Notes under the pieces: generated by a model
The model's database searches: none
Told to the model about the DNA's origin: nothing
Seen by the model: only the letters and a program-made list of their open reading frames with translations
In this document: in pieces, positions 41,438 to 60,379 of the stretch
How positions within the stretch are numbered: position 1 is the first letter of the stretch
How the letters are laid out: each line of letters starts with the position of its first letter
Origin: a bacterium
GTDB lineage: Bacteria > UBA8248
Assembly (NCBI GenBank): GCA_965213685.1
Contig: CBDBZY010000041.1
Span: forward strand, 448,001-512,000
Length of the DNA stretch: 64,000 bases
Direction of reading: 5' to 3'
Translations under genes and position numbers: made by a program

Positions 41438-42262
41438 CATTGAAATATAATTGTACTCAATTGTAGTCAGACTTTTAACACAGTTGTACTCAGACCTATC
41501 AGTTAATGCTTGTGACATGTGCATGCTTGTGGCTAAAACACAGTGGAAAGTATATTGTCCCATTATACTTTATGACTTACAAAACCTTACTTGTAGAAAG
41601 ATCAACCTGGGGAACTACATGTCGAAAGGCTAGAAATTGTGGGTCCCAAGTTCAAGATAATGATATATTGAGCTTTCATAATGCGGCATGTCAAGAATTG
41701 CTTGTTTCTTTGAACCTTCATACAGTAAACACTACGCTTTTTGAGACCATCAAGGTAATAACACTTGATTTTCCACAGAATGGTTTATATAGGGGAGCAT
41801 ACATCAGTAATTTTTTGCGTGAAAAGAAGCACAACTACATGTGAGAAGTAACTTTGTTGAAGCAAAGCCTCAATGATGAGTGTTGTCAAACGTTAAAAAC
41901 AGTATTGAGGACTCAACTTCCAAACTAGGCCTGTTTGTGTGATGTTACTTAGGCCCACAGTGTGCTAATGTTGTGTTCAGGATTCCATTATGGCTGTATT
42001 TCTGAATACAGAGTTCACAAACAAGCACAGTGTGGTATGGCAGTATCATCAAAAAGAAACAGTGCAATTTTGCCTTCCCAATAATCTTGAAGTTATAATA
42101 CTATAGACTCAAAGTTACAGGAAAGATATACAATTGCACAGTAGCAATAGTGCAGGTGTAACCTTGAATCATGTAGTCTCTCTTGCACTAAGGAGGCAAT
42201 GATGACCATAGCGTGCACATACTAGCTGCAATAGAATGGAACGTTGATGTTATTGTGCACCT

Positions 42263-44720
42263 AATTGAGTCCCAGATTGAAATACCAACCAGAATGTGCA
42301 GTCAACATTGAGTCCCATATCACTTTCACCACAATATTCTCCAAACATTGAGTCTCATACGGCAGTGCCGATGATAACATGTACCCAACATCGAGTCCCC
42401 CATAGCAATACCAGCCATAGCATGGACCCAACAGTGAGTCCCACATGGCAATACCAGCCATAGCATGGACCCAACACTGCGTCCCACATGGCAATACCAG
42501 CCATAGCATGGACCCAACACTGAGTCCCACATGGCAATATCAGCCATAGCATGGACCCAACACCGAGTCCCACATGGCAATACCACCCATAGCATGGACC
42601 CAATACTGAGTCCCCCATGGCAATACCACCCATAGCATGGATCAACACTGAGTCCCACATGGCAATACCAGCCATAGCATGGACCCAACACTGAGTCCTA
42701 CATGGCAATGCCAGCTATACATGCACTCAACATTGAGTCCCATGCGACAAGGCCAACCATAGCATGGACCCAACATTGGGTCCCACATAGCAATACCAGC
42801 CATAGCATGGACCCAACAGTGAGTCCCACATGGCAATACCAGCCATAGCATGGACCCAACACTGCGTCCCACATGGCAATACCAGCCATAGCATGGACCC
42901 AACACTGAGTCCCACATGGCAATATCAGCCGTAGCATGGACCCAACACCGAGTCCCACATGGCAATACCACCCATAGCATGGACCCAATACTGAGTCCCC
43001 CATGGCAATACCACCCATAGCATGGATCAACACTGAGTCCCACATGGCAATACCAGCCATAGCATGGACCCAACACTGAGTCCTACATGGCAATGCCAGC
43101 TATACATGCACTCAACATTGAGTCCCATGCGACAAGGCCAACCATAGCATGGACCCAACATCGAGTCCCCCATAGCAATACCAGCCATAGCATGGACCCA
43201 ACAGTGAGTCCCACATGGCAATACCAGCCATAGCATGGACCCAACACTGCGTCCCACATGGCAATACCAGCCATAGCATGGACCCAACACTGAGTCCCAC
43301 ATGGCAATATCAGCCGTAGCATGGACCCAACACCGAGTCCCACATGGCAATACCACCCATAGCATGGACCCAATACTGAGTCCCCCATGGCAATACCACC
43401 CATAGCATGGATCAACACTGAGTCCCACATGGCAATACCAGCCATAGCATGGACCCAACACTGAGTCCTACATGGCAATGCCAGCTATACATGCACTCAA
43501 CATTGAGTCCCATGCGACAAGGCCAACCATAGCATGGACCCAACATCGAGTCCCCCATAGCAATACCAGCCATAGCATGGACCCAACAGTGAGTCCCACA
43601 TGGCAATACCAGCCATAGCATGGACCCAACACTGCGTCCCACATGGCAATACCCGCCATAGCATGGACCCAACACTGAGTCCCACATGGCAATATCAGCC
43701 GTAGCATGGACCCAACACCGAGTCCCACATGGCAATACCACCCATAGCATGGACCCAATACTGAGTCCCCCATGGCAATACCACCCATAGCATGGATCAA
43801 CACTGAGTCCCACATGGCAATACCAGCCATAGCATGGACCCAACACTGAGTCCTACATGGCAATGCCAGCTATACATGCACTCAACATTGAGTCCCATGC
43901 GACAAGGCCAACCATAGCATGGACCCAACATCGAGTCCCCCATAGCAATACCAGCCATAGCATGGACCCAACAGTGAGTCCCACATGGCAATACCAGCCA
44001 TAGCATGGACCCAACACTGCGTCCCACATGGCAATACCAGCCATAGCATGGACCCAACACTGAGTCCCACATGGCAATATCAGCCATAGCATGGACCCAA
44101 CACCGAGTCCCACATGGCAATACCACCCATAGCATGGACCCAATACTGAGTCCCCCATGGCAATACCACCCATAGCATGGATCAACACTGAGTCCCACAT
44201 GGCAATACCAGCCATAGCATGGACCCAACACTGAGTCCTACATGGCAATGCCAGCTATACATGCACTCAACATTGAGTCCCATGCGACAAGGCCAACCAT
44301 AGCATGGACCCAACATCGAGTCCCCCATAGCAATACCAGCCATAGCATGGACCCAACAGTGAGTCCCACATGGCAATACCAGCCATAGCATGGACCCAAC
44401 ACTGCGTCCCACATGGCAATACCAGCCATAGCATGGACCCAACACTGAGTCCCACATGGCAATATCAGCCATAGCATGGACCCAACACCGAGTCCCACAT
44501 GGCAATACCACCCATAGCATGGACCCAATACTGAGTCCCCCATGGCAATACCACCCATAGCATGGATCAACACTGAGTCCCACATGGCAATACCAGCCAT
44601 AGCATGGACCCAACACTGAGTCCTACATGGCAATGCCAGCTATACATGCACTCAACATTGAGTCCCATGCGACAAGGCCAACCATAGCATGGACCCAACA
44701 TTGGGTCCCACATGGTAATG
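42263..44720. repeat. Left array: 43-bp monomers in a 385-bp (9-mer) higher-order repeat, ~6 copies
   Basis: Monomer catggacccaacactgagtcccacatggcaataccagccatag. The ORF track repeats at 42642/43027/43412/43797/44182/44567 (period 385). Degenerate units continue to ~45210. Confidence 0.97.
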
Positions 44721-45264
44721 CAATAGAGTGTACCTAACATCAACTCTTGTGTGGCAAAGACTACCATTGCAGACATTGAACATCAAGTGCTGCTTTTTAT
44801 TGCACCAGGAACACAGCGTGTACACCCAGCACCGAGTCCATTGTTCTCTCCTGCACTGAGGATGCAATGATTACCATGACATGCACCCAATACTTATTCC
44901 CATACATTGTTTTCTGATTCCCATATATACATTATTTTCTTTCTGCACTACAAGGGAAGGTAGTTGTAACCACATTGTGCAATCACCATGAAAGGGGGTC
45001 CAGTAGTAGGGATGCACATTCAAAACTGAGTCACTGTCTCTGACCTACCTCAATGTGGACCCCTTCATACTTGCATAGGATGCTGCAACTGGTGTATATC
45101 TCACAACAGTGAGTCAAGTGCAAATATAATCATGCTCGTGCTCAAGCTTGTACATCAAAGTTAATACTCCACATTGGGCTTTTACTCGATATTGAAGTTG
45201 TGACTCAAAACTGCACTACTACAAAGGTAAGGCATAATACACATGATGGCATACAAAAGATATA

Positions 45265-48200
45265 CTAAATCTTTCTTATTTGTTCGTAGGCATTCTGTAA
45301 CTCTAACTTTAAAGCACTTGGAATCCTACTGGAGGTGGTGAGTTCAAGAGGAAACAAAACAGAGGTGATTGGTATTGTCTCTCTCCATGTTGTATATATG
45401 CCTTGTTTTCGATATTTGTATAGCACCCAAGGTTGTGAATACGTGCCAGTCATCCATTCTATTACTACACTCTTCAAATCTCTCTCCAGAGCTACAACTT
45501 TCCCAATTTGAGGCTCCTCATCGCCATAACATTGTAAGAAGCATGCCACCACCATACCCACTTCAATTGTGTCACAATTCACAACAAATTCATTGTCCTC
45601 ACTCATATCATCTTCCCCAGCAGAGGAAAAAACTGAAGTGGGAGGACGTGGTGGTGCAGCAGGAACAGTCTCTCTGGGAGAATCAGTAGTGCTCTGTATG
45701 ATATATACAAATACACATACTTTCTTATACAACTGCTATAACATCACATCATTACCACACACCTCATGTGAAGAATTGAGTGGCTGTTCCTTGTGCTTCA
45801 CTGCAATCTAGAGCACATTAAAGAGTGCTGACATGCCAATACATACGAGTCATATTTTAACATACCTTTGCTGGAATATTAGTGTCTTTAGATACCAGTC
45901 GTGTAATCTCAGCTCCAAGTGGCTCTGGCTCTTGTACCATTCTTGTCGAGCTAGAAATTATAGCAGCTGACACAAGGGTTGGAAGCATCCAGGGAACTGG
46001 GTCTAGAGTGAGATGGTCCAGCTCTGCGGTCTTAGACATAAAGCTTTCCCACGCTTCCCATGCAGGACCTGAGAGCCACTGCCGGTACTTGTGCAGATCT
46101 CGTAAAAGGTGCTCTAGATCAATTTTGCCTGATGATGGAACCACCAGTGGTGCAACATCACTTGCATCTGGGCAACCCTATATTACATATAGGGGTGAAC
46201 TGAAATCATACATATGCATGAGTTTGAACAAAAATTACCGAAAGAAGATGAATTCCAACACCTGCAGGCTGCCAGGGGTTAGTACTAAACCTCTTGTAGT
46301 GCATTTCTGCTCTATTTGAAGAGCCCAAAGTGAATCTGAACACCAAGTACTTCGAGTGATTAGCAACATCACCAAGTACAGGAGCTAACCAGGACTTGAA
46401 GTCCCAAATGAAGGATAGAAGGTGAGCACTGGGATTTGGCGTGCTGCTGCGGTGTATGACCTGAAGTAAATCTGAAATTAGTCAGAACACTATTTAACAT
46501 TTCTGTGGTACATATATATGCCAAAATTATACCTGGTATTGACTCAGCGCCAGTATGCCGAATTTCATCTCCTATTTTTGAGAAAAGCTGATCAACATCT
46601 TCGTGGGTGTGCCCCACAGGAAGGAAATTAACTTGAACCTGTCCAAAAATGCATGTACAAAATAAATACAAACTCACAACATATCCTATTAAACCAGGCT
46701 ACCTTTTGGAAGATTCTTAGCTCAACAAGAGCTGCACAGAATCCAAGAACATATCTGTTCTTGTTCTCCCTTACTGTATTGTCCATTTGCAGATAAAGGG
46801 TTGAAGGAAGAGGTCTTGCTTTCTGGAACTCATTAAGGGTGTTCATTAATACCGTTAGAGTAAGGTTGCTGTCATGTGGCCACTGGAGGAGGTCAACATA
46901 GGCAAATGCCAACTTCCCACATGGAGCTTGTGTATGAGCAAGAACACCAGTCACATGAGTTCGCAAACGCCATAGTCCAGATGTAGACTTGGCAATGATT
47001 TTGGTGTTGGGCAAATTAGTTTTTGCCTGATCCATGCCATCAATAATGATAGCAACACACTTGTTGGGCTCAGATCTAGCCTTTTGTCGATGATGGTGAT
47101 ACTTCTTCCGCTCAGACCTATAAAGTAGGCAAACACTTAAGGCCTTTTCACACTTAATGCGCATTCAAGGCGACTCGAAGTGGATCGGGGTTGAATGCGA
47201 ATTCAAGGCGCATTGATCCATTTCACACTACGCGAAGCTCAATCCACTTCCTCTAGAGGTATACGGAGATGTGTCACGTGGTCCTGCCCGTATTTTGTGC
47301 GTAGAAGTGGCTGCGTGTCAGCTTCCTCATAGCTCTAACTTTAGGCCTGCCCGGAACATGAACTAGCTAGTGTATTGAGGTATTTGCTGGTAAAAGACGA
47401 CATCAGATCAGGAGGAGACGCGTTTACACGAAAGAGACTGTGATAAGAGCGGGATTACAGCGCAGACGTTGAGCTTTGTGTGCAAAGATCGGGAAAACTT
47501 GTGAGCATAGATCGCTTGTGCTATTTGTCCCTCGTTGTGCTCCCGCTGCAGCCTTGCACATACCACAGACACTGTATGCACATGCGGATGCAATTATGAA
47601 GGCGTGGTCCCGCGTGATAATTGGTCAATGCGCATTCAATCCACTTCAAACCACCTCCCGAGGTGGTTTGGGCCAAACCGGTTTGAATGCGCATTAGGTA
47701 GCAATGCGCATCGAGTGTGAAAACGCTCAATGCGCATTCGATGCGCATTGGAGTGTAGTGTGAAAAGGCCTTTAGGTTTCTGAAGCAACATAAGGGTGTC
47801 TCAAGAGTTCTTTTCAACAAACACTTACTCTACTTTCAGTAGGTGTTCTTGTAGTGCAGCTTTGAGTTCAGCTTGCTTGCTTTTGTCAAGGCATCCACTC
47901 CTCTCCAACTTCACTTTGACACACAGATCACACTTAGCAAACCTGTTTTGCTAGAAAAGGAATCAGCATGCAATGACAATATTCAAAGAAAACGAGCCCT
48001 TATGTACTTAACTGAATGTGCTTCACATGCGTATTTCACAGCTACGTAAGAGGAGGCAGCAATCTAGTAGGCATTCACTAAAGGCTGCATTGGAAGGCTT
48101 TCATGAGAGCCTAATAGATATGAATCACGAAAATCTCAACTGACACATATTAGAAGATGTGAAGCTATAACAAGCTTGAAGCACATATATGTATATAGCA

Positions 48201-49390
48201 TAATAAGAGAGTAATTTGCATGAAACCCAAATGCACATACACTAAAACTATTGAGTCATACACAACAAATAACAAGGCTTCCATCTCATAACAAATGTTG
48301 TTTCATTTCCAAGTTGACAAAAATCCCATACACAGCAGTACCATTCACTTGCTTCTGTGTGCCAGTCACAGCTTAAAGATGCCATAAACATGCAATATAC
48401 AAGCCTAACACCTCATAAACACTCCTACTCATGAATTAGAGGCAACAAATTTGAATCATAACAAATTCACACTGAAGTACATTCATTAATATATAATTCT
48501 AAACATACCTGGGGAATTACAACATTGGAAAAACTTTCTGCCCAGATCTTGTAAAACATACTCAGCGACACAATTTCTACAGCAGGAATGCCTTGAATGG
48601 TCATATCTTCCGTATACCGCATGTACACATCCTTTTGTGTTTCCCATGATGGCAAATGAATTTGAGAATTGTGTGGCATCTTGTCCCCCACCAAATGGAA
48701 GTACTTCGTCATCCATGCTTTGGCACTATTGGACTTTGTGTTTGACCTACGTCTGCCTTTGTTTCCATGCTCTGCCACCAGGACTCCATCTGACACAGAT
48801 TTCACTAAACGAGACAATCGGCGGGATGAAACTCCATATAATCGGGACCATGATGCTTGGCATATTTCAAAGCCAGATAAGCTGAACTTGACCTGCCGCT
48901 TCCCCTTCTCTTGCTCATGGCTATTCTCAAGAATTCTGTCCATCAACCACTGACGCTGCTCGTTCACTTTCAGTGAGTAATACCTCCTTCTGGCTGCCAT
49001 CACATCAAGCGCAGTAAGGTGGAGAAGGCACTGTCGGTGGCAACACTTGGACACCAAGAGGGATCCCACTAGCTCTCGTTCACTCTCACTATCATGTGAA
49101 GCAACATCACAGAAGGACTCACTTCCTGAGCTGGCCTTCTCCAGGGCATCGCCAACTTCTTTGTTCCTGCTGCTATCGCAGTCACGTTCCTCCGATGGAT
49201 ATACAGCAGAAAGATGGGAAGACTCGTCGCTAGGAAAGCACGCTCCATCACTAGATGACTCGAGACTGCTTAGAGAACTGAACAGGGGAGGTGTTATTTC
49301 TCGACTACATCTTCGCTTGGGGGTAGGACTGAGACTGCTAACACGCTGTGCGTCCGCGAAGTCGTCTGGGTCACTCGCCATCTCGTCCAT
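45265..49390 (-). CDS. Transposase, ~847 aa, 8 exons (Sola-like DDD/E type) with a C-terminal small beta-barrel domain
   Basis: Exons 49390-48509, 47950-47829, 47117-46703, 46638-46533, 46471-46239, 46177-45866, 45807-45763 and 45693-45265, all GT-AG, 2544 nt open. Motifs CC..QC, HGNKG, GDKMP, FAKCDLC, IIIDGMDQ, LYLQMDNTVRENKN and FLPVGHTHEDVDQLFS. The superfamily label is from memory of these motifs plus the 4-bp TSD. Confidence 0.85.
47140..47771. mobile_element. PIF/Harbinger-type MITE in transposase intron 2
   Basis: TTA|AGGCCTTTTCACACT ... AGTGTGAAAAGGCCT|TTA, with internal aatgcgcatt repeats. Confidence 0.85.
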
Positions 49391-49778
49391 ATCCCGCTTT
49401 TGAAACAGGTTTCCGATACCAGTTTTAGAAACGTCCACGTGGATGGTCACGTGCCCGTACTTTGAACCGGCTTCAGAACTGGCTTCTAAAACTGGTTTCA
49501 CCAGTCTAATTCCACGTGGAGAGCCACGTGCGCGTATGGGTACGTACAACAAACCAGCTACTATCTACGGTCGCTTCAGTGTTGGTCTCCCTTCGTCGAA
49601 TCTCAGATTCCTCGGCCTCGTCTTCTCCTTCTTTCGTCGAAGTGATTGTTGTGACTAAGCTTACCTGTGCGGAGTGCTGGACTCGTGACTTGTGTGTACA
49701 CGTCCGTAGCGGAAGAGATTCAGGAGTGGTAACGTGTAGGGACTCAACGCTGAGAACAGTGCAGTTATCTGAAGCAAG
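49391..49778. promoter_or_regulatory. Putative bidirectional promoter between the two transposon genes
   Basis: 388 bp separate the divergent ATGs. The region is CpG-rich with several CACGTG E-box-like sites. Function is inferred from geometry only. Confidence 0.45.
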
Positions 49779-52700
49779 ATGACACGCCCTAAGAAGTGGT
49801 TTATGACGGAGAATGATGGTCACGGAGGTGGAATTGTGTTAAGAAATTGCGATGGTTTGTTGAAAAAGCCTAACGCCCTTCAACCACTTGGGCGTATTTC
49901 GAGTGTGACAGTTGCGGATGCGGAATCTTCCAAGTATGCTCAAAGCGTGCTGGTGAGTTTGTTCTATTGGCGACTGAAATGTTCTCCTCATAGCTCGATG
50001 GTGACCTTTCTATCTACAATACTGGCTACACCTAGTCTCGTGCCCAGCCGCCCCACCCACGGGGAGGAAGGAGCGTCTGGTAACTATTGAACGTATTCCT
50101 GGTCCTAACGCCTCGCAGTCAAAGGGTATCCGGTTACCGCAATTACGGTTGTACGGATTCGTGGACTATGCACCTGCAGTAGACATACATATAAATACCG
50201 GCCTTTGGTCGGAGCTCTAGCCTTTACAAAAGCTGATACGTCTTCCAGAGGGCTGCTTCTCCACTCTCTTCATTTCTACAATTGTTAGAGCCATACTTGT
50301 CTTTAGTATGAGCAGTAAGGACGCCATGCAGTCCACCATAGAATGGCGGCGTTCTCTCTTCGAAGTGTAGCACCGTAAATGAACGAATACTAGTTTCAGA
50401 TCGAGCGACTGAACACACATCTAGTACTGCTATGTACAAGGAGCCCGTGCTTCACTCCCGCTCAGGAACAATCCAATCATCTTCTCTTCTACGCAGACAT
50501 GGCCCAACGTCCGTAAGTGGCCCAGCACATGCAACGACGCGCAACTACGATAGCTAAGAGAGCCTAGAAATCCCTGGGGTGGCTGTGCACTGGACTTTGA
50601 ACCAACTTCATCTACATACTTTGCGGCGCACGTGCGATTTGATTGACAGTTCTGCAACCTGATTGGTGAGCCTGAATTCCGGCGCAGAAAGGTGTTAGGA
50701 CCAAGAAATGCTGCAATAGTTACCAGACCCTCTTTCAGGCGGGCGCACGTGAGGGTCTGGGCACGAGACTAGGGTACACCAGTAACGGGTGTGGTGTGAA
50801 TTTGTGATTGTGATACCTTAAGAATGCACGAGGCTCTTTGATTAGCGTTGGTGTCTAGAGTTGTGGGTGTTAGGGGCATGAGTAGTGTAGAATTTAGATT
50901 GTGTGTACAAAATTGATGTACTTGAGGTTAATTTTTGCACAGAGTAACAGTATATTTCTTTTCCAGTTTAAGTGTGAAAATGGAAGAATAGTCCTGCCTC
51001 TGAAGTGTCATGAATGGAACCAGTCTGATTTTTCAGCAAAGTTTTCCAGTGTTACCTCTGCAAAAGAATTTGAAGCTAAATGGCTTGAAGAAATGTCTGG
51101 CTCAGCACCAAATGATGCTACAGATTCTTCTACCATGCCATCTCCCATGTCAACATCAACACAGAGTGAGCAATCCAGTAGACTGGCTCATGCCAGTACA
51201 CCTACATCAAGTGGATTTGTGCCGTCTGACCGGCCTCCTAAGCGTAGGCATGGTGAAAGTAAGTCATCCCAGGGTGCAAGCCATTCATCATTCCAATCAG
51301 GCATCTTGAGTGAATCACCATCTAAAAGATGCAAGTTTATTAAGGAAGGGATTGACGAAAGGATTGAAAGATGTCGCAAAGGTAAGTATATAAAACGTTT
51401 TAGGAACACACCCCTTATTGTCAGTAGTCTGTGTTTCACATAGTTCCATTGAACTTTCTCTGTTGATTCTTGTATGCAGGATTGATGGAGTTACCTGTTT
51501 CGCAGTTATCTCAACCCCCCAGGGAATCACGTCTGCTTCGAGAAGCTGATCCAACATTTGTTCGCAACCTGAAGCTAAAGATGACGCAAGATCCATCTGC
51601 ACCAGGGGCAACACCCATGGCTGTTCTTTGCAAGGATGTAGAAGTAATTACAGAATTTCATTTGAAGCACAAAAATGTGTATAAGTATGAAGTACTTGGT
51701 GGGCTTCATACTCTTATTGCAAAGAATCAGTTAATGGAAGAGTATCCTGGAAACCCCTTTTTCAAGGCTGTCACTGCTGATGTTTATGTTGGACTCAATG
51801 ATGAGGAGGCACTCAGGCTCGCTCAGAGGCATAATCTGAACTCACATTTTGTTCATCATGTGACACATCGGGATTTGGTATGTACAGCTGTAAAGTGACA
51901 TGGCGTGTGTGCAATGGTGGGAATACATTTACGTGCATGTGCATGCACGTTGTTTGATTGAAGATATATAGCTTGTAGCTAGTATAATTATCCTATGGTT
52001 TATATGGCAGTTAAGCCGCACTGATCTGAGGTTGCTTGATGTGTTCTATTGCTTTTTTGATGGTTTTTCTATTCCTATGTATTTTTCCATTTCTATCACC
52101 AGTTTGGAGTCAGCTCTACAATGTTTGGGCAGTCGTATCTTTCTTGCTATGCATGCTCCCAACTGACATTCATGCCAGTTAGATTTACGTTGGGCTCTTT
52201 GTATGTACATTACTGGATTGTGTCACCACTGAGTCTTCCTTTTCAATGTAGGTAGAGGCCTGCCGCGCTCGACTTTACAGGATGGAGGGGAAAAGTATGG
52301 ATGCAGAAACCCCACAGCCATCTGCAGCCTGGAGGGAATCATGCAAAAAGGCAATCATTCCTGAGGTAACACCTGTACACAATCTTTGATGGATGACGGT
52401 GACCTATATGTATGTTTAATTTCCACAGGATATCTCAAATACACATCGGGATGCCATCTTTTTCCAAGCTGCCTTCACAAAGAAGGTCTGGGACCTTGCA
52501 GTGGAGGTTATGGACCTTTTTGAGCAGGCTAAGCTGAAAGGACAACGACTTAATCTATCTACATTGCTAACAAAGCCCGAGTTTAAACAACAATATTTTG
52601 CTCCAATCAGACGCCTAGATGAGAGTGAACAATGCTGCCTTCTAACTAAGGTTCGTGCGTATTCTAAGGCCATGGTTTGATATTTTGGTATTAATTTATA

Positions 52701-53869
52701 CCTCTGTGTAATTTAGTTTTCCTCTGTGTTGCTAAGTATAACTGCAGCCATTTTGTAGGTGATCAATGGAGAGTGTTCACTTGCTGATCTGAAATTGGAA
52801 GCCGCTGACATCAAGCAGATGAGGGCCTTGAAGACAGCTTTTCTTCGTTTGACCAACACTGGTACGTGGGAAGAAGCCAGTGAGAAGTACCCGGCATTTG
52901 CATCAGAACAGCATCTACGGAAGTTCATGAGAATGGACTTAAACAAATGTATTCCCCAACCTTTTGCTGATTTTTGTACTCGAGCCAAGCTTTCTGAATC
53001 AGATCCAGACAGTGAATGTACTTCCTCTAACCTCTGTGTGAAGTGCCACACCTCAGTGGCCTGCGTTATTGATGCAAAATCTACTGAGCTTAGTGGACAA
53101 ACTATCACAAAGAGGTTTGCATCTTTCAAAGGTGCAAAAATTACTTTGATCTCACTAGATGCGGTATGTTTTTCAAACAGTGTTTTAGTAATTTTGTTTT
53201 AATTGCTTTGTATTCTTTCACGCAGGATTGTACGAGGGAAACTATTGAAAGCTTAGCGTATACTATCAAGGAAATAAATGCTGTAGCTGGCTGCAGCACA
53301 TACACTGTTGGAGCACTCTCTTGCCCAGCCTCCTTTCAAGTCATACAGGAAGTGTGGACAAAGGTTTTTGTGAATGCAGATGTTCTGTTTGCAGCAGTAA
53401 AGACAACTAAACAAGGTACTTACTTGTGAAGCATAGTGTTTTTATGATATAATATCATTTTCAATTTTAACTTGCAGCTCGTACCTCCCCACGCTTGAAT
53501 TCCTGTGTTACTGTTGTTGTTTTGGGTTTTTTTTCACCGGATGACATGTTGAAGGATGAGCATTTCAATTTTAACCCTGGAGAGCCCAGAAATAACTACT
53601 TTGAGGGAACAGAGCAAGAAATGTTTATGCATATTATTCAACACTTCTCTCCTGATGGTTGCACTGTTCTGGACATGACTGGATGTTCTGGTAAGCATCT
53701 TACCATTTACTTTATGTGCCAAAATTATGCATGGATATTATTGTAATATATAGGAATGGCATCAAGAGCTGCCCTCACTAGTGGGAGAAATGCGGTATGT
53801 GTGCTAGACGGGGAGGAGCTCTGTTCAGCTGCTTTCACGTCTCTATCTGAACTGTCTTCTGATGACTAA
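49779..53869 (+). CDS. ~748-aa accessory protein, 9 exons: ParB/Srx-like domain + helical region + degenerate N6/N4 DNA-methyltransferase-like C-terminus
   Basis: Exons 49779-49952, 50967-51381, 51480-51877, 52252-52365, 52429-52650, 52759-53163, 53226-53415, 53478-53690 and 53754-53869, all GT-AG, 2247 nt open. ParB-like region ELPVSQL...LREADPTFVRNLKLKM...YEVLGGLHTLIA...YVGLNDEEALRLAQRHN. MTase-like region FMHIIQHFSPDGCTVLDMTGCSGMASRAALTSGRNAVCV. Confidence 0.8.
50033..50771. mobile_element. AcademH-type MITE in intron 1 of the ParB-like gene
   Basis: TAGTCTCGTGCCCAG ... CTGGGCACGAGACTA with 9-bp flanks ggctacacc/gggtacacc. Confidence 0.8.
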
Positions 53870-54094
53870 TTAAATGAACTGTTTATCAAGGTCACCAAAT
53901 ATGTAATATTGTGTTGCATTCACTTCGTCATGTTCTCTTCAAACAATATGTTGTGAAAGTTACCTTTGAGTGTCTTTTGCATGTGGCACAGCACCCAATT
54001 TTGAGTCCTAGCTTGACAAAGACCAAGCTCTATCCCTTAACCCTAATTTACTATATAGAGCACATGCTGCTTGAGTGCTTTCATGTAGCTGCAA

Positions 54095-54935
54095 AGAAAT
54101 GTCAAAGCTGGGACTTAATTTTGAATTCTCTTCAAGATGAGCGTGGGAGATAGAACATAATTGCAGACTTGAGTGGTTTGTCAAGAAGATGTAAGCTTAA
54201 GAGTTGGCTTTCCTGGAAGAAGGGACTCAAAATTTAATTACAACTCATTAAACTGCTCACCTTATAAGGGAGGGAGAGAAATTAGAGTTCTACAAGCTAG
54301 TCATATGAGAAAAGAGACTCAAATTTGAGTTCCATAAACTAGTTGCATGAAGAAAGGGACTCAAATTTGATAACTCGCCTAGGGGAGGGAACTCAGCCTT
54401 GAGTTCAGCAAACTGCTCACCTTGAAGTATGGACTCAAATTTGAGTTGTACAAACTGCTTGCCTCTTCAAGAGTTTTCAGCTTTGAGTTCTGTTTGTTGC
54501 TCACCTTGAAAACAGACTCACCTTTGAGTTCTATCAACTTTTCACTTTGAAAAAGGGACTCAACTGTGAGTTCTTCAAACTGCCCCCCTTGAAGAAAGGA
54601 CTCAACTTTGAGTTCTGTGAACTGCTCACCTGGAAGAAGGGACTCAACTTTGAGTTCTGTGAACTGCTCACCTTGAAGAAGGGACTCAACTTTGGGTTCT
54701 ACAGTTGGCTCATCTGAAAGAGGACACGGCTATGACTCCCACAAACTTCACATTTTGAAGTGCTCACCTTGCATCAGAGACTCAACTTTGAGTTGTACAA
54801 GCTGCTCACCTATTCAACCTTGGGTCAGGCAGTTGCCTCACCTGGAAAGAAGGTTTCAGCTTTGAGGTGTGCAAACTGCTTACCTGGAAGAGTAAAGGGA
54901 AACCTGGAGAATATGACTCAACTTTGAGTTTCTGG
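54095..54935. repeat. Right array: diverged ~42-bp monomers
   Basis: Consensus gggactcaactttgagttctgtgaactgctcacctkgaagaa, with core positions at ~54389, 54431, 54512, 54555, 54598, 54640 and 54681. Confidence 0.9.
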
Positions 54936-56401
54936 AATCACACATTTGAAAGATGCGACTTAAACGAGGGACTGGGTAACAAGCTCATGTACATGAACCT
55001 GAAGAAATTTAGTGTGTAAAGGACATTTCATATGAGACTCACTTGAGAAATGCAGTGAAAGTTTGATTAACACTCAGATATTGAGAAACTAAGGGCAAAA
55101 TGTTGAGTGTTACCTTCACATTTCACCATAGTCTTGAGTATATCTCAAGAAAGTGCCTCAAAAACCTACAGAGAGTAAGGAAAGAGGGTGGTGTCTGCTT
55201 GCTTTCTTGAGTTATTATCTCACAAAAGTTGCAATTTCTTCATTAAAAAATTGATTACAAAATGACAAAATAATTTCCACTGTGTTCTAAACTGTTCTTT
55301 ATTCATATTTTATTACCCATGCATGTGCACTTGTAGTGTTGCTATGGAAACTGACATATTTTTGTAGTTCATCATTGGTGATCCTGTCTAGAAATTGTAG
55401 TACATGGTGTAGATATGTACTTAAGAGCTTTTAGAACATGTTATCTAGGTATATTAGGTCTATAAATGACCTATTGGCTCAAACCTCCAACCAGAGGACA
55501 ACCTCCGAAAAGAGAACAAAACCTCTGCTCCCAAAGTGTCCTTTATTCGGAGGTTCCACTGTATACATGTACATGTACATGCATATAAAATTATTGTATG
55601 TGTACATGTACATTGGAGTCATGTTCAAATAGTCGTACATACTGTACATGCACATGTACAAAAGGAATTACTGGGGGAAATGCTGAAATGTAAATTTCGC
55701 CTGTTAGTGTAACTGTCTATACACAGCGCACGCAGCTAGACTTTCACAGGGCCATTTTGTGCGAAAGTAATAGGCATAAAAGTTTGCCTTGAGTAACACA
55801 AGGGCAGGTTTGGCGTTAAATTTTGCCTTTATGTACAAAGGCAATATTGGCATAAAATGTTCCCTTTGTACACAACGACAAAAATTCCTATTTTATGCCA
55901 AACTATGTACGACCCGTCTACAAAACACACCCCAAATCACGTACACTCGCGCTTCAAGGGCAAGTGTCCGTGGAGCCGGCGAAGCTAGCTAGCCTCTGGA
56001 GTCAGTGTGCCAGGCGCCCAACTTGAGTACACGCTGATATGTGACATACGGTCACGCCGTGCCCCACCCCCTAACTAGTCTCGCATAGCCAGACTCTCTC
56101 GGCAAGCGGAGAGAGTCTGGCTTCGCACTACCGCCTAACAGCTTGGGAACGCGCTACAACGGTGGACGCCTCGCCTGCCGGTACGCCATACTCCACCATT
56201 AGATACCTAGGGAACGTTGCTACACTGGCTGCGCCCTGCTTAGAACAGGTTAGAACAGGGCAGCCACACGTATGTAGCTACTGTAGTTAGCCGGCCGAAG
56301 GTTGTCGACATGCCTATGCACTAGCTGTCACGAAAATGTACCAGCATGTGCAGTTTCATGATCATTGGCATTACAGTTATTGAGTTTTGTTTCTTCAACC
56401 T

Positions 56402-56482
56402 GAAGAAGAAGAAGAAGAAGAAGAAGAAGAAGAAGAAGAAGAAGAAGAAGAAGAAGAAGAAGAAGAAGAAGAAGAAGAAGAA
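56402..56482. repeat. (GAA)n microsatellite within a dispersed repeat
   Basis: About 27 GAA units. The paralog at ~11600 has only a short interrupted run. Confidence 0.95.
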
Positions 56483-59400
56483 AAAATAATTATGAAGAAT
56501 TACAATATTGCATTTTTGCTAATATCTCATACCATATACAACATATTTTCACCAATTTCTGATTTGAGTTCCCTTTTCATCTACTCTTAACACTACTTTC
56601 TTCAAATGTGAAATGAAGTGCATAGTGAAAGTGAAAACTTAAATTTTCAAATGTACAGGGTTGATGCCGAGTGACCTGGGCAATCCCTATCAGAGAGTCG
56701 GTAGACTCTCTATGTAGGGATGGCGCCGACACGCCTATAGTGCGTGTACATAGGAAAGCCTTCTTAACTCGCGAACGCTCGCGTTCTAAGCCTTTCTGGG
56801 CCCCTAGCTATTCTATTCCAGTGGTTCTCTACCCAACAATACCCCCCAAGTAGCTAAAATGCATCCCTTGACTTACTACCAGAAAACGCTCCAAAGGTCG
56901 TTTTGTCTTTCTTCCTATTCTTCTTTTTCTTCTTCTTCTTCTTCTTAAGAGATTTCTTTGGACTAACGTATCTCAAAACTGGCTGAAGTAATCACGTAGT
57001 TCTTTCACGGATCCACTGTAATCACTACCAAGTACGATCTGTGCTAATAATGTTGTTGTCGAGTGACCTGGGCAATCCCTATATACACAGTGCTACCGCA
57101 CTGTGTGATATCGATGCCCCCACACATATAATGGTGTCTGTGCTATGCTGACCCTGGGCTATCACCTCTATACATGCAGTATGCTCATTGACCACAGAAC
57201 TTCCCTTGCTCACACCAATACTGTAATCAAAAGGAATGCAGGGAACCAGACAAGACTTCTGCACCATGATGCAATGTTCACTTCTCCCCCAAGAGACTCA
57301 CTCCTAGCACTATATTCTCCATGCTATGCACATGACTCTAATACAATGTCATTAACGCGGAAGTGTTAAGCATGTTCCCATACCATAGATATGTTCCGTG
57401 AGGTTAAATATCTATGATGATACGCACTTGAACTGAACATCTGCTCACACCTGCGATTGTTCGTGAGCTTATAGGGGGACGCTGCACGTGGAGAAAGAAC
57501 ACACACTGCAGCCGCTACTCTTTCCACACCTGAGCTGTATGGTACAGCTCACATAATTATGTGATAGCAAAATGATTATATATGTCTATAGCTACTTCAT
57601 TCTCTCACTAGACCAGACTGAAACAACTCTTAGACACGTGCAGATGTCGATAGGGGTTGAATGCTGTCACGCTGTCAACTACCTCCTTGAGTACTAGTAA
57701 TATTATGTTATACTGTATCAATGCTTACTAAGATAGTAAGAATGCGGGAGTTGTATCCCTTCCCCTTCCCCCGTATTCCTCCGCGCACGGGAAAAGTACG
57801 GCTGGCATGCGCGGCTACTCCGACCTGCATGTGGCATAACGTCACTCAGAGCACGGTGAGCAATTTGATTCTCTACCATATCTGCTAGCAATAATTGTGT
57901 AACTTCCACGATCAAGATAGCTGATGTACATGTACAGTATGTGTAAATACTAATAGTTACATGTACATGCACAGTCATACAAATTGTTCTCCAGTCCAGT
58001 GGCTACACACAGGGCAGAGGGTGAGTACAGAGAGCACCAACTAACAATGCCACACACTTTGAATGAATAACATTGTAATGATTAGCAACAGCACACATGT
58101 CAGTCCATCTCACAAAACAATTATTATGCAGTACATTTTGATAACAATCATTTTGACTCCTTATACACACTCCTCCTGTACTGTCCTCTGTCTGGTACTA
58201 TGTACAGGGCAAGACTGTCAATGACTGTGGCAGTGACAGTGAGGAGACCCATCCCAGACACCAGGTGGAGGAGGAGGGTGGGCAGGGAGAACAGGCCTGA
58301 GGGAGGGAGGGAGGGAGGGAGGGAGGGAGGGAGGGAGGGAGAGAGAGAATGGGGAGAGAGGGGAGTGGTAGGTAATACATGTAAGGACAAGGACTGCAAG
58401 TGTGGCCATAACAACCTGATGGCACCAGAACAACAACACATCCAATATACATGAACATGTACATGCATATACATGCACATATTGTATGTGTACATGTACA
58501 TTGGAGTCATGTGCAAATGTCCTACATACTGTACATGCACATGTACAAAAGGGGTTACTGGGGGACATGGTGCTGAGCCTAAAGGAGGGAGGTAGGGAGG
58601 GAGGGAGGGAGGGAGGGAGGGAGGGAGGGAGGGAGGGAGGTAGAGAGGAGGATGGAGGGAGGGGAGGAGAAGGAAGGGGTGAAACAGTGGTACTAATTGA
58701 CAAGGCACAAGGCAGGAGGAGCACAAGGCAAGAAGAAATAAGGGCAGAATGGAGGGTGAGGAATAGGCATAATTTTGAGAATAATAGGTAGTCAAAAGAA
58801 TAGGGAAATAATTGATATGAATAATCGAAGGTTGTGTGAAAGTATAAAGTAATAAAAACACTTTGGCACCACGTTTTATTGCCCCACCCACTGCATGCCA
58901 CGCACGCATAATGAGACTCACAGACTACCCAGTATTGTGGGTAGATCAATTAATTAGTGTGCATTATTAAGAGTGTGCAGTAATGGCGGACGGAGACTGG
59001 AACCAGCCAGGTTGCAGTCTAGTGGAGGCAATGGGAAGCGTGGTGACTAGAAGCTGAAAATCAGAACTGATTTGGAGCTAGAGAGTAATTATTTTCACAG
59101 AATAATCTTTTGAAACAAAGCATAATTACAGTTTTAAGGAGAATAATAGACTAAGAATAGGGGAATAGAATAATAGGTATCAAGGCCTAATAAGGTCAGT
59201 GAAAGAGTCAACGCAAGCTCTGACTGAAGCAGGGAAAATGATTGATAGAGAAAGGAGGAAGGAATGGGAGAAGGGAGTGAGGGAGGGAGGGAGTGAGGGA
59301 GGGAGGGAGGGAGCGAGGGAGGAGGGAGGGAGCGAGGGAGGAGGGAGGGAGGAGGGAGGGAGGGAGGGAGTACATGTACAAGGTTGGGCATGTGGACCAT

Positions 59401-59484
59401 CTGTTAAGCTAATTTGTTGTAGTTAGTGTGTGTGTATCTTTCTAAGTTGTATGAACAAATTTTCTAAGCTACGATGTTGAAAAG

Positions 59485-59710
59485 ATTATATTTTTCTAAG
59501 CCATAGAGGCTGTACAGATTCTATTTTTCTACGCCATAAATGATGTACAGATTCTATTTTCCTAAGCCGTGGAGGCTGTACAGATTCTATTTTTCTAAGC
59601 CGTGGAGGCTGTACAGATTCTATTTTCCTAAACCATAAATGCTGTGTACATTCTATTTTCCTAAGCCGTAGAGGCTGTACAGACTATATTTTTCTAAGCC
59701 GTTGAGGTTG
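59485..59710. repeat. ~33-bp minisatellite (ttttctaagccgtggaggctgtacagattcta)
   Basis: About 7 diverged tandem copies. Related units at 25830-25970 and 60890-60985. Confidence 0.85.
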
Positions 59711-60379
59711 TTGTAATTTTCTTTCTTTCTCTTTCTTTCCCTTCTCATTCTTTCTAAGTAGTGCTCTATATACTTGATTGTTCATGTACACTACATGAGT
59801 ACATGTGCATGATGTATGGGTACGCGTACGTACATGTACACATGTGCACTGCACAGTAGCTTGACCATGATGTGGCTGCCCTGCAGGAGTCTGCCAGCCT
59901 TCAGAGAGTGGTGCTGTCTACCTCACACTGTGCTCCGTGCATGAGGTGAGCCTTCTGCATTGGGGGAAGGAGGGAGGGAGGGAGGGAGGGAGGGAAGGAG
60001 GGAGGGGGAAGGAGGGAGGAGGAAGGAAGGGAGAGACAAAGGGAAGTGGGGTAGGAGGGATTGCATGTACACATGTACATGTGTTCAGGTAAACAAATGT
60101 ACACTGTTACCTCTATGTGTGGCAGTGCACTGTACCTGTACGTGGAAGGCCCTGATCAGTTGGTAGCAGCTTTCTGCCTGCATGGTCTCCACGTCAGTGC
60201 CATGGAATGAGTGGAGAGCTAAGTGCTGCACCTTACCATAGTCCTGGGAGGGAGGGAGGGAGGAAGGGAGGGAGGGAGGAAGGGAGGCAGGGAGGGAGGG
60301 AAGCAATATACAGTGCACATACTGTGATACATGTACATGTCCATGTACATGTGTCTTTCATTCTGAGTTCATTCTTATA

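What the first reader, a model, noticed from the sequence alone, without database searches (positions are those of the whole stretch)
42263..54935. Two unrelated-looking arrays share one 16-bp palindrome at four-helical-turn spacing (parS-like)
Seen: the left 43-bp monomer contains GACCCAA-CA-CTGAGTC, with perfect variants GGACCCAA-CA-TTGGGTCC (~42766) and ACTCAA-CA-TTGAGT (~42725). The right 42-bp monomer contains GACTCAA-CT-TTGAGTT. The sequence between cores differs between arrays, yet the core and the 42-43 bp period are both kept. Known: bacterial parS sites are 16-bp palindromes bound by ParB dimers, and 42 bp is about 4 B-DNA turns. Inference: these are phased binding sites for a dimeric element-encoded protein, either the ParB-like product or the transposase. 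The half-site is also a GANTC.
Basis: partly seen in the sequence, partly recalled or inferred. Interest (0 to 1): 0.85.

Follow-up and report, generated by a model that had tools for sequence, protein, structure and literature searches.

The report
Transposon-end palindrome arrays, ParB-like partner
Two repeat arrays near the ends of a 13.7-kb jumping gene in a eukaryotic contig carry the same 18-bp palindrome, most likely docking sites for a bacterial-type ParB-like protein that the element itself encodes.

Summary
The window is eukaryotic DNA mis-binned into a bacterial genome bin. Both arrays lie inside one 13,750-bp cut-and-paste transposon (41537-55286). It has 23-bp terminal inverted repeats and a 4-bp CTAA target duplication. 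A contig from another sequencing run joins the left flank directly to 55287 with a single CTAA, which shows the empty site. The element carries two divergent genes. One is a DUF7869 DDE-type transposase (minus strand). The other is a multi-exon gene (plus strand) with a ParB/sulfiredoxin-fold domain (AlphaFold pLDDT 90; Foldseek top hits Noc, ParB, PadC) and an N6_N4-methylase-like C-terminus whose catalytic motif is degenerate. Two related elements from a metagenome (ParB exon 65% identical) have the same layout. Their arrays carry GGACCCA-N4-TGGGTCC at 31-32 bp spacing. So the palindrome arms are conserved and the linkers are not, and the period changes by one helical turn (about 3 turns versus 4). 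GANTC is not conserved. Best reading: phased binding-site arrays for an element-encoded dimeric protein, probably the ParB-like accessory protein; the transposase is the main rival. Similar ParB-like accessory genes, some with adjacent inverted-repeat arrays, were reported in algal transposons in 2025. I found no report for animal-type genomes. No binding has been shown.

The parts
41533..41536 (.). Left copy of the 4-bp target-site duplication CTAA
   Evidence: Sequence. The empty-site contig of run X5 joins 41532 to 55287 with one CTAA.
41537..41559 (+). Left terminal inverted repeat AACACAGTGGAAAGTATATTGTC
   Evidence: 21 of 23 complementary to 55264-55286, E 0.002 in the 1.9 kb x 1.35 kb search. 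The terminal AACAC is shared with L002 and L003 ends.
42263..42373 (.). Three degenerate solo monomers carrying TTGAGTC at 42265, 42308 and 42348; the first two read TTGAGTCCC
42374..44719 (.). Left array: 43-bp unit x about 55, in a 385-bp higher-order repeat x6.2 at 98%. Core GGACCCAACACTGAGTCC.
45265..49564 (-). Transposase gene, multi-exon, Pfam DUF7869 (DDE-like motifs IIDGMDQ, QMDN..ENKN, GHTHEDVDQ). Its C-terminus is a conserved small domain.
   Evidence: Pfam E 1.7e-36 and 1.2e-13. Six segments are collinear with the Antedon protein P0003. 24 homologues were found, mostly from marine invertebrates.
47133..47718 (.). Nested MITE-like inverted-repeat insertion inside a transposase intron
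   Evidence: 36-nt arms, 72% complementary. It lies between exon matches 47834-47950 and 46700-47113.
49740..49757 (.). Solitary palindrome-like site GGACTCAACGCTGAGAAC, 22 bp upstream of the ORF2 ATG, in the roughly 215-bp divergent intergenic region
   Evidence: 2 mismatches to the family consensus. There is no counterpart in L002 or L003 at <=4 mismatches near their ATG.
49779..53870 (+). ORF2, the accessory gene. ATG at 49779 (MTRPKKW). Approximate exons: 49779-49955, 50976-51415, 51476-51885 (ParB/Srx domain), 52252-52368, 52468-52671, 52759-53163, 53226-53426, 53471-53700, about 53750-53870 (methylase-like C-terminus).
   Evidence: ORFs. Collinear with hemichordate proteins P0172 and P0177. 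The ATG is conserved with L002. ParB fold. Methylase-like. Exon borders are inferred, not verified by RNA.
50067..50736 (.). Nested high-copy MITE-like element in the first intron of ORF2
   Evidence: 47-nt inverted arms. Other copies lie on C64, C41 and C51. Contig depth is 180-457 against 12 for the rest of the element in run X2.
53990..54935 (.). Right array: 42-bp unit, about 14-17 diverged copies. Core GGGACTCAACTTTGAGTTC. The regular part is 54272-54723.
55264..55286 (-). Right terminal inverted repeat
   Evidence: The element ends exactly here according to the empty-site contig.
55287..55290 (.). Right copy of the target-site duplication CTAA

Best explanation
The two arrays are cis-acting, helically phased binding-site arrays in the subterminal regions of a 13.75-kb eukaryotic cut-and-paste DNA transposon. 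The element has a DUF7869 transposase and a 4-bp target duplication, and is probably of the Sola1 superfamily.

Each monomer carries one 18-bp palindrome (GGACYCA-N4-TGRGTCC) for a dimeric, element-encoded DNA-binding protein. The most likely binder is the product of the second gene. This accessory protein has a ParB/sulfiredoxin-fold N-domain, a helical region that may be a ParB-type HTH, and a degenerate N6_N4-methylase-like C-terminus.

I infer that 15-55 dimers sit on one face of the helix at each end and form a nucleoprotein block. That block would either mark or shield the element from silencing, or bring the two distant ends together for transposition.

Shown: the element, its borders and insertion polymorphism, the ParB fold, the methylase-like fold in homologues, and conservation of the palindrome arms across related elements.

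Inferred: that anything binds, which protein binds, and what binding does.
For: 1. One element. TIRs match 21 of 23. Both ends are flanked by CTAA. A contig in run X5 carries the left flank (41503-41532, 29 of 30 letters) directly before 55287.

2. Motif restricted to the element. 60 of 61 consensus hits and 14 of 14 of the 9-mer fall inside it.

3. Related elements. L002 and L003 (ParB exon 65% identical, transposase core 57%) have the same layout: array, transposase (-), ORF2 (+), array. Their arrays are built on GGACCCA-N4-TGGGTCC. 32 of 32 hits in L002 and 15 of 15 in L003 lie in or next to the arrays.

4. Arms conserved, linkers not. Arms are 11-14 of 14 identical among the four array consensi. 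Linkers are not similar in 12 tests (p 0.03-0.9). In L002 and L003, monomers anchored on the linker still show the core at about 80-99% against the linker at about 40-70%.

5. Periods near whole helical turns. They are 42.8, 41.9, 31.4-31.6 and 30.5-31.5 bp, about 4 and 3 turns of 10.5 bp.

6. ParB fold. The AF2 model has pLDDT 90.1. Foldseek gives 13 PDB matches at E<=1e-3, all Noc, ParB, PadC or sulfiredoxin. VIA-align gives Z about 10.

7. Possible HTH. The helical region after the ParB domain superposes loosely on the ParB DNA-binding domain (7o0n_A Z 9.7 over 171 residues but rmsd 9.4; 6t1f_C Z 6.7). The Atlas lists a neighbour with ParB_N+HTH_ParB at TM 0.54.

8. TIRs unlike the palindrome. 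The TIR sequences show no resemblance to it (my reading), so the protein that reads the termini need not read the arrays.

9. Literature. In red algae, ParB-like accessory genes sit in a different transposase superfamily (Plavaka) and are also accompanied by adjacent tandem arrays of inverted repeats (preprint 10.1101/2025.02.11.637652, section 8 read). This links arrays to the ParB-like gene rather than to a particular transposase.
Against: - No binding data of any kind exist.
- The ParB domain has GGxH where ParB has its arginine patch (46 and 44 of 48 sequences have G, 38 of 47 have H). The GERR motif is recalled, not from a call. ParB-type CTP clamping or spreading is therefore doubtful.
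- The HTH assignment is inconclusive: rmsd is high and both sides of the Atlas match are predicted models.
- The left array adjoins the transposase gene, not ORF2. Arrays at both ends in opposite orientation are also what transposase-binding subterminal repeats look like.
- The comparison rests on only two element families. L002 and L003 are 97-98% identical copies from one assembly outside their arrays and count as one.
- In the window's left array the core is no better conserved than the linker.
- The methylase-like domain lacks a canonical motif IV in the window, L002 and L003, so a modifying function is doubtful.
Confidence: 0.5

Rival explanations
1. The arrays are subterminal transposase-binding repeats, as in En/Spm-CACTA, Ac or P elements. 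The DUF7869 transposase would bind the palindromes through its N-terminal Cys-rich/HTH-like region as a dimer, and the arrays would help assemble the synaptic complex. The ParB-like protein would act elsewhere.
For: - Arrays sit 300-700 bp inside both termini.
- The better-conserved half-site is in opposite orientation at the two ends: 8 TTGAGTCCC on the left, 5 GGGACTCAA on the right.
- The same layout occurs in L002 and L003.
- The deletion derivative L002 keeps both arrays, as a non-autonomous element must keep its cis sites.
- The transposase family has a conserved N-terminal region with CC..C and an HTH-like segment (alignment).
Against: - The TIRs show no similarity to the palindrome (my reading).
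- L002 also keeps ORF2, so it does not discriminate.
- In red algae, inverted-repeat arrays travel with ParB-like genes in another transposase superfamily.
- No DNA-binding domain of the transposase was identified by Pfam.
Confidence: 0.3
2. The arrays are neutral internal satellites. Tandem duplication of a palindrome-containing stretch expanded inside the element with no protein-binding role.
For: The left array is a recent higher-order amplification (385 bp x6.2 at 98%). Its core is no better conserved than the linker. Tandem repeats inside DNA transposons are common (general knowledge).
Against: - The palindrome arms are kept at both ends and in a related family with only 65% protein identity, while linker sequence and length changed.
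- The core is better conserved than the linker in the older arrays.
- The periods stay near whole helical turns.
Confidence: 0.1
3. The arrays are a bacterial-type parS centromere for partition, or GANTC targets of a CcrM-like adenine methylase encoded by the element.
For: The palindromes resemble parS in size. A ParB-fold domain is fused to an N6_N4-methylase-like domain. Each window monomer holds one GANTC: 50 in the left array and 12 in the right.
Against: - The contig is eukaryotic (ORF density 0.30, GC 0.46, microsatellites, introns) and the element is chromosomal with a TSD.
- No ParA-like gene was found among the 10 ORFs scanned, and there is no arginine patch.
- GANTC is at near-background density in the L002 and L003 arrays (3-5 per about 600 bp).
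- The motif IV region reads LISLDA/DCTRE in the window and S(S/L)LPDVA in L002/L003 instead of (D/N/S)PP(Y/F/W) (the canonical motif is recalled).
Confidence: 0.03

Closest known systems
Plavaka (CACTA/EnSpm-superfamily) giant transposons of red algae with accessory gene PAG3 (Petroll et al., preprint 10.1101/2025.02.11.637652; sections 8 and 21 read)
   Same: [quoted passage not shown] The authors propose that the protein binds and modifies its own element. A PF01555 methylase-like domain also occurs in that cassette (PAG2).
   Different: A different transposase superfamily and a different host kingdom. PAG3 is fused to a 2OG-oxygenase-like domain, not a methylase-like one. Its ParB likeness was weak (HHpred E 0.29), whereas here the fold match is strong. 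No motif, period or cross-element conservation appears in the text I could read; supplements are closed.
Sola1-1_Ec32 of the brown alga Ectocarpus (PMC12477816; passages read)
   Same: A giant DNA transposon with a gene on the strand opposite to the transposase. That gene encodes a ParB-like domain plus a DNA methyltransferase domain (N4C/N6A type). This is the same two-gene architecture as here. The 4-bp TSD found here fits Sola1.
   Different: 21.5 kb with a 1104-aa protein, in a stramenopile. Arrays are not mentioned in the passages I read. Here the catalytic motif of the methylase-like domain is degenerate.
Bacterial ParB-parS (and Noc, KorB)
   Same: ParB N-domain fold, and palindromic sites of 16-18 bp suited to a dimer, often in several copies.
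   Different: No ParA. GGxH instead of the arginine patch. The sites form tens of phased tandem copies inside a eukaryotic chromosomal transposon. The HTH is not established. A partition role makes no sense for an integrated element.
Bacterial and phage ParB_N-N6_N4_Mtase fusion proteins
   Same: The same domain order. An Atlas structural neighbour of the hemichordate homologue is a cluster with 92% ParB_N and 95% N6_N4_Mtase.
   Different: Eukaryotic, intron-containing, with a long insert between the domains and an extra N-terminal domain. Motif IV is non-canonical.
VANDAL transposons and their VANC anti-silencing proteins in Arabidopsis (PMC5735166; abstract read)
   Same: An element-encoded accessory protein. 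Its target motifs form tandem repeats in the element's non-coding regions and differ between related elements.
   Different: An unrelated protein family and Mutator-type elements. Binding and hypomethylation are experimentally shown there, and nothing is shown here.
En/Spm (CACTA) subterminal repeats bound by TnpA (recalled, no paper read)
   Same: Multiple short binding motifs in both subterminal regions, bound by a second element-encoded protein that helps bring the ends together.
   Different: Those are 12-bp motifs in mixed orientation, not regular phased arrays of palindromes. The proteins are unrelated.

Membership tests
Bacterial ParABS partition system | ParB N-terminal (ParB/Srx) fold | tested here: met
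   AF2 pLDDT 90.1. Foldseek: Noc 7ol9_B E 6.8e-5, ParB 7bnr_A E 1.3e-4 with TMq 0.56. VIA-align Z about 10.
Bacterial ParABS partition system | CTP-binding arginine patch (GERR; motif recalled) | tested here: not met
   The aligned position reads GGxH: G in 46 and 44 of 48 sequences, H in 38 of 47.
Bacterial ParABS partition system | HTH DNA-binding domain after the N-domain | tested here: inconclusive
   7o0n_A Z 9.7 but rmsd 9.4 over 171 residues; 6t1f_C Z 6.7 with rmsd 5.3. Atlas neighbour ParB_N+HTH_ParB at TM 0.54, both predicted models.
Bacterial ParABS partition system | Partner ParA ATPase gene | tested here: not met
   A Pfam scan of 10 ORFs of the element found no ParA-type family. 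The two genes and two nested MITE-like insertions account for the matches found in the interior.
Sola1 superfamily of DNA transposons | 4-bp target-site duplication | tested here: met
   CTAA at both ends and once in the empty-site contig. TTAT flanks L002.
Sola1 superfamily of DNA transposons | AWWT target preference (stated in PMC3845634, citing Bao et al. 2009) | tested here: inconclusive
   Only two sites, CTAA and TTAT. Both are AT-rich but neither is AWWT.
Sola1 superfamily of DNA transposons | Transposase homologous to reference Sola1 transposases | not testable with these tools
   No Repbase references are on hand. Pfam names the domain only as DUF7869, and no paper mentions DUF7869.
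ParB_N + N6_N4 DNA methyltransferase fusion | N6_N4_Mtase (PF01555) fold at the C-terminus | tested here: met
   For the hemichordate homologue P0172: Atlas TM 0.70-0.77 to PF01555 clusters. The Pfam hit is E 0.004, 17.5 bits, below the 26.7 cut-off. The window gene is collinear with P0172. The window's own domain was not folded.
ParB_N + N6_N4 DNA methyltransferase fusion | Catalytic motif IV (D/N/S)PP(Y/F/W) (recalled) | tested here: not met
   Window: LISLDA | DCTRE across a 62-nt GT..AG intron. L002: SSLPDVA. L003: LSLPDVA. Hemichordates: DVPNDW and DVPDEW. The splice junction is inferred.
Transposon ParB-like accessory genes with adjacent inverted-repeat arrays (red-algal PAG3 type) | Tandem array of inverted repeats next to the ParB-like gene | tested here: met
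   The right array starts about 120 bp after the last ORF2 exon. The same holds in L002.
Transposon ParB-like accessory genes with adjacent inverted-repeat arrays (red-algal PAG3 type) | 2OG-oxygenase domain fused to ParB-like domain | tested here: not met
   The C-terminal domain is methylase-like instead.

The most novel reading that the evidence does not exclude
A bacterial ParB-methylase module was captured by animal-type cut-and-paste transposons and turned into a eukaryotic ParB/parS-like system. Dimers of the accessory protein would coat phased palindrome arrays at both ends of the element. They would either pair the ends for transposition of a large element or insulate it from host silencing. 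Site and protein would co-evolve: arm position 5 is C in one family and T in the other. The methylase domain would be reduced to a non-catalytic DNA-binding or SAM-sensing module.
Probability: 0.3. Interest if true: 0.8.

Novelty: new member of a known kind. Interest (0 to 1): 0.55.

Why it matters
If the ParB-like protein binds these arrays, this is a compact and experimentally tractable case of a transposon carrying its own sequence-specific chromatin or synapsis factor, of bacterial origin.

- The binding site is defined: an 18-bp palindrome.
- There is a natural specificity variant (GGACCCA versus GGACTCA).
- There is natural variation in phasing (3 versus 4 helical turns).
- There is evidence of recent mobility, because filled and empty sites occur in public runs.

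It would extend to animal-type genomes a class of accessory proteins so far only noted in algae and never tested. The protein family is present in hemichordates and a sponge. The finding also flags that this 'bacterial' genome bin is more than half eukaryotic DNA.

Tried and rejected
**GANTC / CcrM-type target: rejected.** GANTC is not enriched in the L002 and L003 arrays, and motif IV is non-canonical.

**Bacterial plasmid or partition locus: rejected.** The contig is eukaryotic.

**Other copies in the bin: none.**
- blastn of 41500-56000 against the whole bin gave 90 HSPs, 32 of them outside the locus. All 32 fall in the nested MITE (9) or right of 55330 (23).
- tblastn with 13 ORF pieces gave one weak hit on C64.

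**Sequence-level family searches of ORF2 exons.**
- Pfam found nothing significant for ORF2 exons.
- A PDB profile search gave only weak sulfiredoxin rows, E 0.4-0.8.

**Searches for related loci.**
- Genome contigs found none (both scans used).
- Viral contigs found none.
- The genome search on the records behind L002 and L003: not held.
- I could therefore not test DUF7869 elements that lack ORF2, which would separate the two main readings.

**Full-length relatives of the hemichordate protein.** Only itself and Saccoglossus were found.

**Linker homology between arrays.** Not significant in 12 tests.

**Solitary site at 49740 as an operator.** Not conserved in L002 or L003.

**Expression.** No RNA holder is listed. 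Run X7, of unknown kind, covers only exon-like pieces at 100% identity. I draw nothing from that.

**Joints not explained.** The joints 51240>51530 and 51563>51706 in X2 and X5 do not fit my exon model. They may come from another partial copy.

**Not run or not available.**
- Complex prediction was not run. It takes no DNA and would not separate the readings.
- Supplements are closed. Supplemental Fig. 13 and Table 6 of the Bostrychia preprint, and Supplementary Material 3 of the Ectocarpus paper, may describe arrays or ParB genes that I could not see.

**Literature on 'not in print for animals'.** Searches found only the two algal papers. Iyer et al. 2011 (their reference 50) was not readable here.


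Full report
**Context.** The window is G000:C41:448001-512000. G000 (7.97 Mb, 71 contigs) is a chimeric bin. Many contigs have about 62-69% GC and are almost fully covered by long ORFs, which is bacterial. C41 and others have 42-54% GC and long-ORF cover of 0.1-0.6 (C41: 588,777 bp, GC 0.46, cover 0.30). Contigs below 56% GC sum to 4.90 Mb. The window has microsatellites, satellites, no long ORFs and genes with introns. The finding therefore lies in eukaryotic DNA. Homologues of its genes come mostly from marine invertebrates.

**Observation.** Both arrays exist as described. The left array (42374-44719) has a 43-bp unit in 54.8 copies, arranged as a 385-bp nine-monomer higher-order repeat copied 6.2 times at 98%. 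54 monomers fall into 13 distinct sequences. The right array has a 42-bp unit and is much more diverged, at 72-80%. There are 17 core-like sites from 53990 to 54913. The quoted perfect palindromes are at 42766 and 42725. The consensus cores are imperfect palindromes, with arms matching 6 of 7.

The shared motif is far from chance:
- GGGACTCAA/TTGAGTCCC occurs 14 times in the window, all inside the element, and 40 times in 4.90 Mb of eukaryote-like contigs.
- ACTCAA-N2-TTGAGT at <=1 mismatch falls inside the element in 18 of 18 cases.
- The better-conserved half-site points in opposite directions at the two ends: 8 TTGAGTCCC on the left and 5 GGGACTCAA on the right.

**What the arrays sit in.** A search for inverted repeats between the two outer flanks gave one outstanding pair: 41537-41559 and 55264-55286, 21 of 23 complementary, E 0.002. 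Each is flanked by CTAA. Unrelated dispersed repeats begin at 55330.

Public runs hold this locus. When contigs of four runs were laid on 44700-56500, one contig of run X5 aligned from 55287 onward. Before that point it carried 30 letters that match the window's left flank 41503-41532 at 29 of 30. That is the empty site with a single CTAA. The element is therefore 41537-55286 (13,750 bp), makes a 4-bp target duplication, and is an insertion polymorphism. X5 contigs also cover the element's interior from 44700 to 53557, although no listed X5 piece crosses the right junction. Contig depth in run X2 is flat at about 12 over the element, against hundreds to thousands over flanking repeats, so the element is low-copy. 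No second copy exists in the bin.

**Genes.**

*Transposase (minus strand).* This is a multi-exon gene. Its core hits Pfam DUF7869 (E 1.7e-36 and 1.2e-13). Six segments are collinear with a crinoid protein, 54% identical in the core. The motifs IIDGMDQ, QMDN..ENKN and GHTHEDVDQ are kept across 15 aligned proteins. A MITE-like insertion sits in an intron.

*ORF2 (plus strand).* This gene starts at ATG 49779, about 215 bp from the transposase ORF, and runs to about 53870.
- Its 143-aa exon (51467-51898) has no Pfam hit.
- The same exon has 386 relatives at E<=1e-3 among 1.84 billion representatives. Most are exon-sized fragments.
- Named relatives come from two hemichordates and a sponge.
- With a 48-sequence alignment it folds at pLDDT 90.1.
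- The 13 PDB matches at E<=1e-3 are all Noc, ParB, PadC or sulfiredoxin. VIA-align gives Z about 10.
- The domain has GGxH where ParB has its arginine patch (the ParB motif is recalled).
- The helices that follow can be laid on the ParB DNA-binding domain only loosely (Atlas lead).
- The C-terminal domain of the 722-aa hemichordate homologue matches PF01555 N6_N4 methylases by predicted structure (TM 0.70-0.77). One neighbouring cluster is a ParB_N-methylase fusion. The Pfam hit is below threshold.
- The window gene is collinear with the hemichordate homologue, including the motif-I region VLDMTGCSG.
- The motif-IV position is non-canonical everywhere: DVPNDW and DVPDEW in hemichordates, S(S/L)LPDVA in L002/L003, and LISLDA|DCTRE in the window across an inferred 62-nt intron.

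**Related elements.** One scan of metagenome contigs with a 10-sequence alignment of the ParB exon returned two loci, L002 and L003 (65% identity). Outside their arrays they are 97-98% identical copies of one family, so they count as one comparison.
- Both show the window's layout: array, transposase pieces on the minus strand, ORF2 on the plus strand. In L002 a second array follows; L003 ends at the contig end. L002 has lost most of the transposase.
- L002 lies between direct copies of a 39-bp satellite. Its ends read AACAGG.../AACACA... and it is flanked by a TTAT duplication. L003's left end starts AACAC.
- Their arrays have periods of 31-32 bp and cores GGGACCCAACTATGGGTCC (left) and GGACCCATTCTTGGGTCC (right), with perfect 7-nt arms and a 4-nt spacer.
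- All consensus hits lie in or beside the arrays: 32 of 32 in L002 and 15 of 15 in L003.
- Across the four array consensi the 14 arm positions are 11-14 identical. The linkers differ in length (13 vs 24-25 nt) and are not significantly alike.
- With monomers anchored on the linker, which biases against the core, the core is still the best-conserved part in L002 and L003.
- Mean periods are 42.8 and 41.9 bp in the window and 30.5-31.6 bp in the relatives. That is about four and three turns of 10.5 bp. The families differ by one turn.
- The window family has T at arm position 5 in three of its four consensus half-sites, where the relatives have C.
- GANTC is frequent in the window arrays (20.4 and 16.1 per kb) only because of that T. 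It is at 4.8-8.3 per kb in the relatives.

**Mechanism.** The following point to selection on a binding site for a dimeric protein, with sites kept on one face of the helix:
- conservation of an 18-bp palindrome at both ends of two diverged families;
- loss of linker similarity;
- periods that stay near whole turns;
- restriction of the motif to the element.

Two proteins are candidates. I favour the ParB-like accessory protein (0.5) for three reasons. It has the fold of a family that binds palindromes as dimers and forms higher-order complexes. The TIRs are unlike the palindrome. In red algae, ParB-like accessory genes in a different transposon superfamily are likewise accompanied by adjacent tandem arrays of inverted repeats. 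The transposase remains a serious rival (0.3), because arrays in both subterminal regions with opposed orientation are the classic arrangement of transposase or TnpA-type sites. What binding achieves is inference. The two options are shielding or marking of the element (compare VANC proteins, whose targets form tandem repeats; abstract) or pairing of ends 13 kb apart. The degenerate motif IV argues against methylation as the output.

**Comparison with the known.** The same two-gene architecture is described for Sola1-1_Ec32 in Ectocarpus: a ParB-like plus N4C/N6A-methylase gene opposite the transposase (passages). [quoted passage not shown] The 4-bp duplication fits Sola1, whose hallmark is a 4-bp AWWT target (passages of PMC3845634). 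I could not compare the transposase with reference Sola1 sequences, and CTAA and TTAT are not AWWT. The red-algal preprint reports inverted-repeat arrays next to the ParB-like gene but gives no motif in the text I read.

I therefore class this as a new member of a recently recognised, experimentally untested kind. What is added here:
- the host range (animal-type genomes);
- a defined palindrome;
- its conservation and one-turn change of phasing between families;
- a specificity-position change;
- a filled/empty polymorphism.

Five literature searches found no report for animals.

**Caveats.**
- There are no binding, expression or modification data.
- Exon borders are inferred.
- Only two independent element families were compared.
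- The HTH is unproven.
- The host organism is unknown to me.

Noticed in passing
whole bin G000 (window = C41:448001-512000): The 'bacterial' genome bin is chimeric. About 4.9 Mb of its 7.97 Mb are contigs of 42-54% GC with low ORF density (C64 1.64 Mb, C18, C41, C16, C51, C7 and others). These look eukaryotic, next to a bacterium of about 65% GC.
   Followed up: partly
window 50067-50736: A MITE-like element with 47-nt inverted arms is nested in the first intron of ORF2. Its ends recur on C64, C41 and C51. Contig depth there is 180-457 against 12 for the host element in run X2.
   Followed up: partly
window 47133-47718: A second MITE-like inverted repeat (36-nt arms, 72% complementary) lies inside a transposase intron.
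   Followed up: no
window 49740-49757: A single palindrome-like site, GGACTCAACGCTGAGAAC, lies 22 bp upstream of the ORF2 start codon in the short divergent intergenic region. There is no counterpart in L002 or L003. It may be an operator or may be chance.
   Followed up: partly
window 45265-45735 (minus strand): The transposase C-terminus is a conserved small domain shared with the crinoid homologue (36% identity). It has a weak Pfam hit to the Cul7 CPH domain (E 0.027) and a paralogous match on C64:823000-823221. It may be a chromatin-reading module.
   Followed up: no
protein P0160 residues 1-114 (homologous to window 49779-51125): The N-terminal domain of the ORF2 family models as a PH/PTB-like fold, VIA-align Z 5-6. 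This is weak and was not pursued.
   Followed up: no
L002 6757-6832 and 14104-14264: The related element sits between direct copies of a 39-bp satellite. L003's left flank resembles the same satellite. This may reflect a target preference, or the satellite may derive from the element's end. It is unresolved.
   Followed up: partly
L002 10767-11201 and 16398-17687: There is an exact 217-bp tandem duplication inside an ORF2 intron region, and a separate 37-bp x 34.5 array downstream of the element.
   Followed up: no
window 51240-51706: Contigs of runs X2 and X5 show joints 51240>51530 and 51563>51706, and depth over 51004-52185 is slightly raised. These do not fit my exon model. They may come from a partial second copy elsewhere in that genome.
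   Followed up: no
window 55330-56500: Immediately right of the element lie high-copy dispersed repeats, with contig depth up to about 3900 in X2 and many copies on C41, C64 and C18.
   Followed up: no
window 58299-59711: GAGG, GGAG and AGGG microsatellites lie at 58299-59370, and a 33-bp tandem repeat x6.9 lies at 59483-59711.
   Followed up: no
window 45322-52648 (run X7): Run X7, of unknown kind, holds contigs that match only exon-like pieces of both genes at 100% identity. It could be a transcript library, but nothing on record says so.
   Followed up: no
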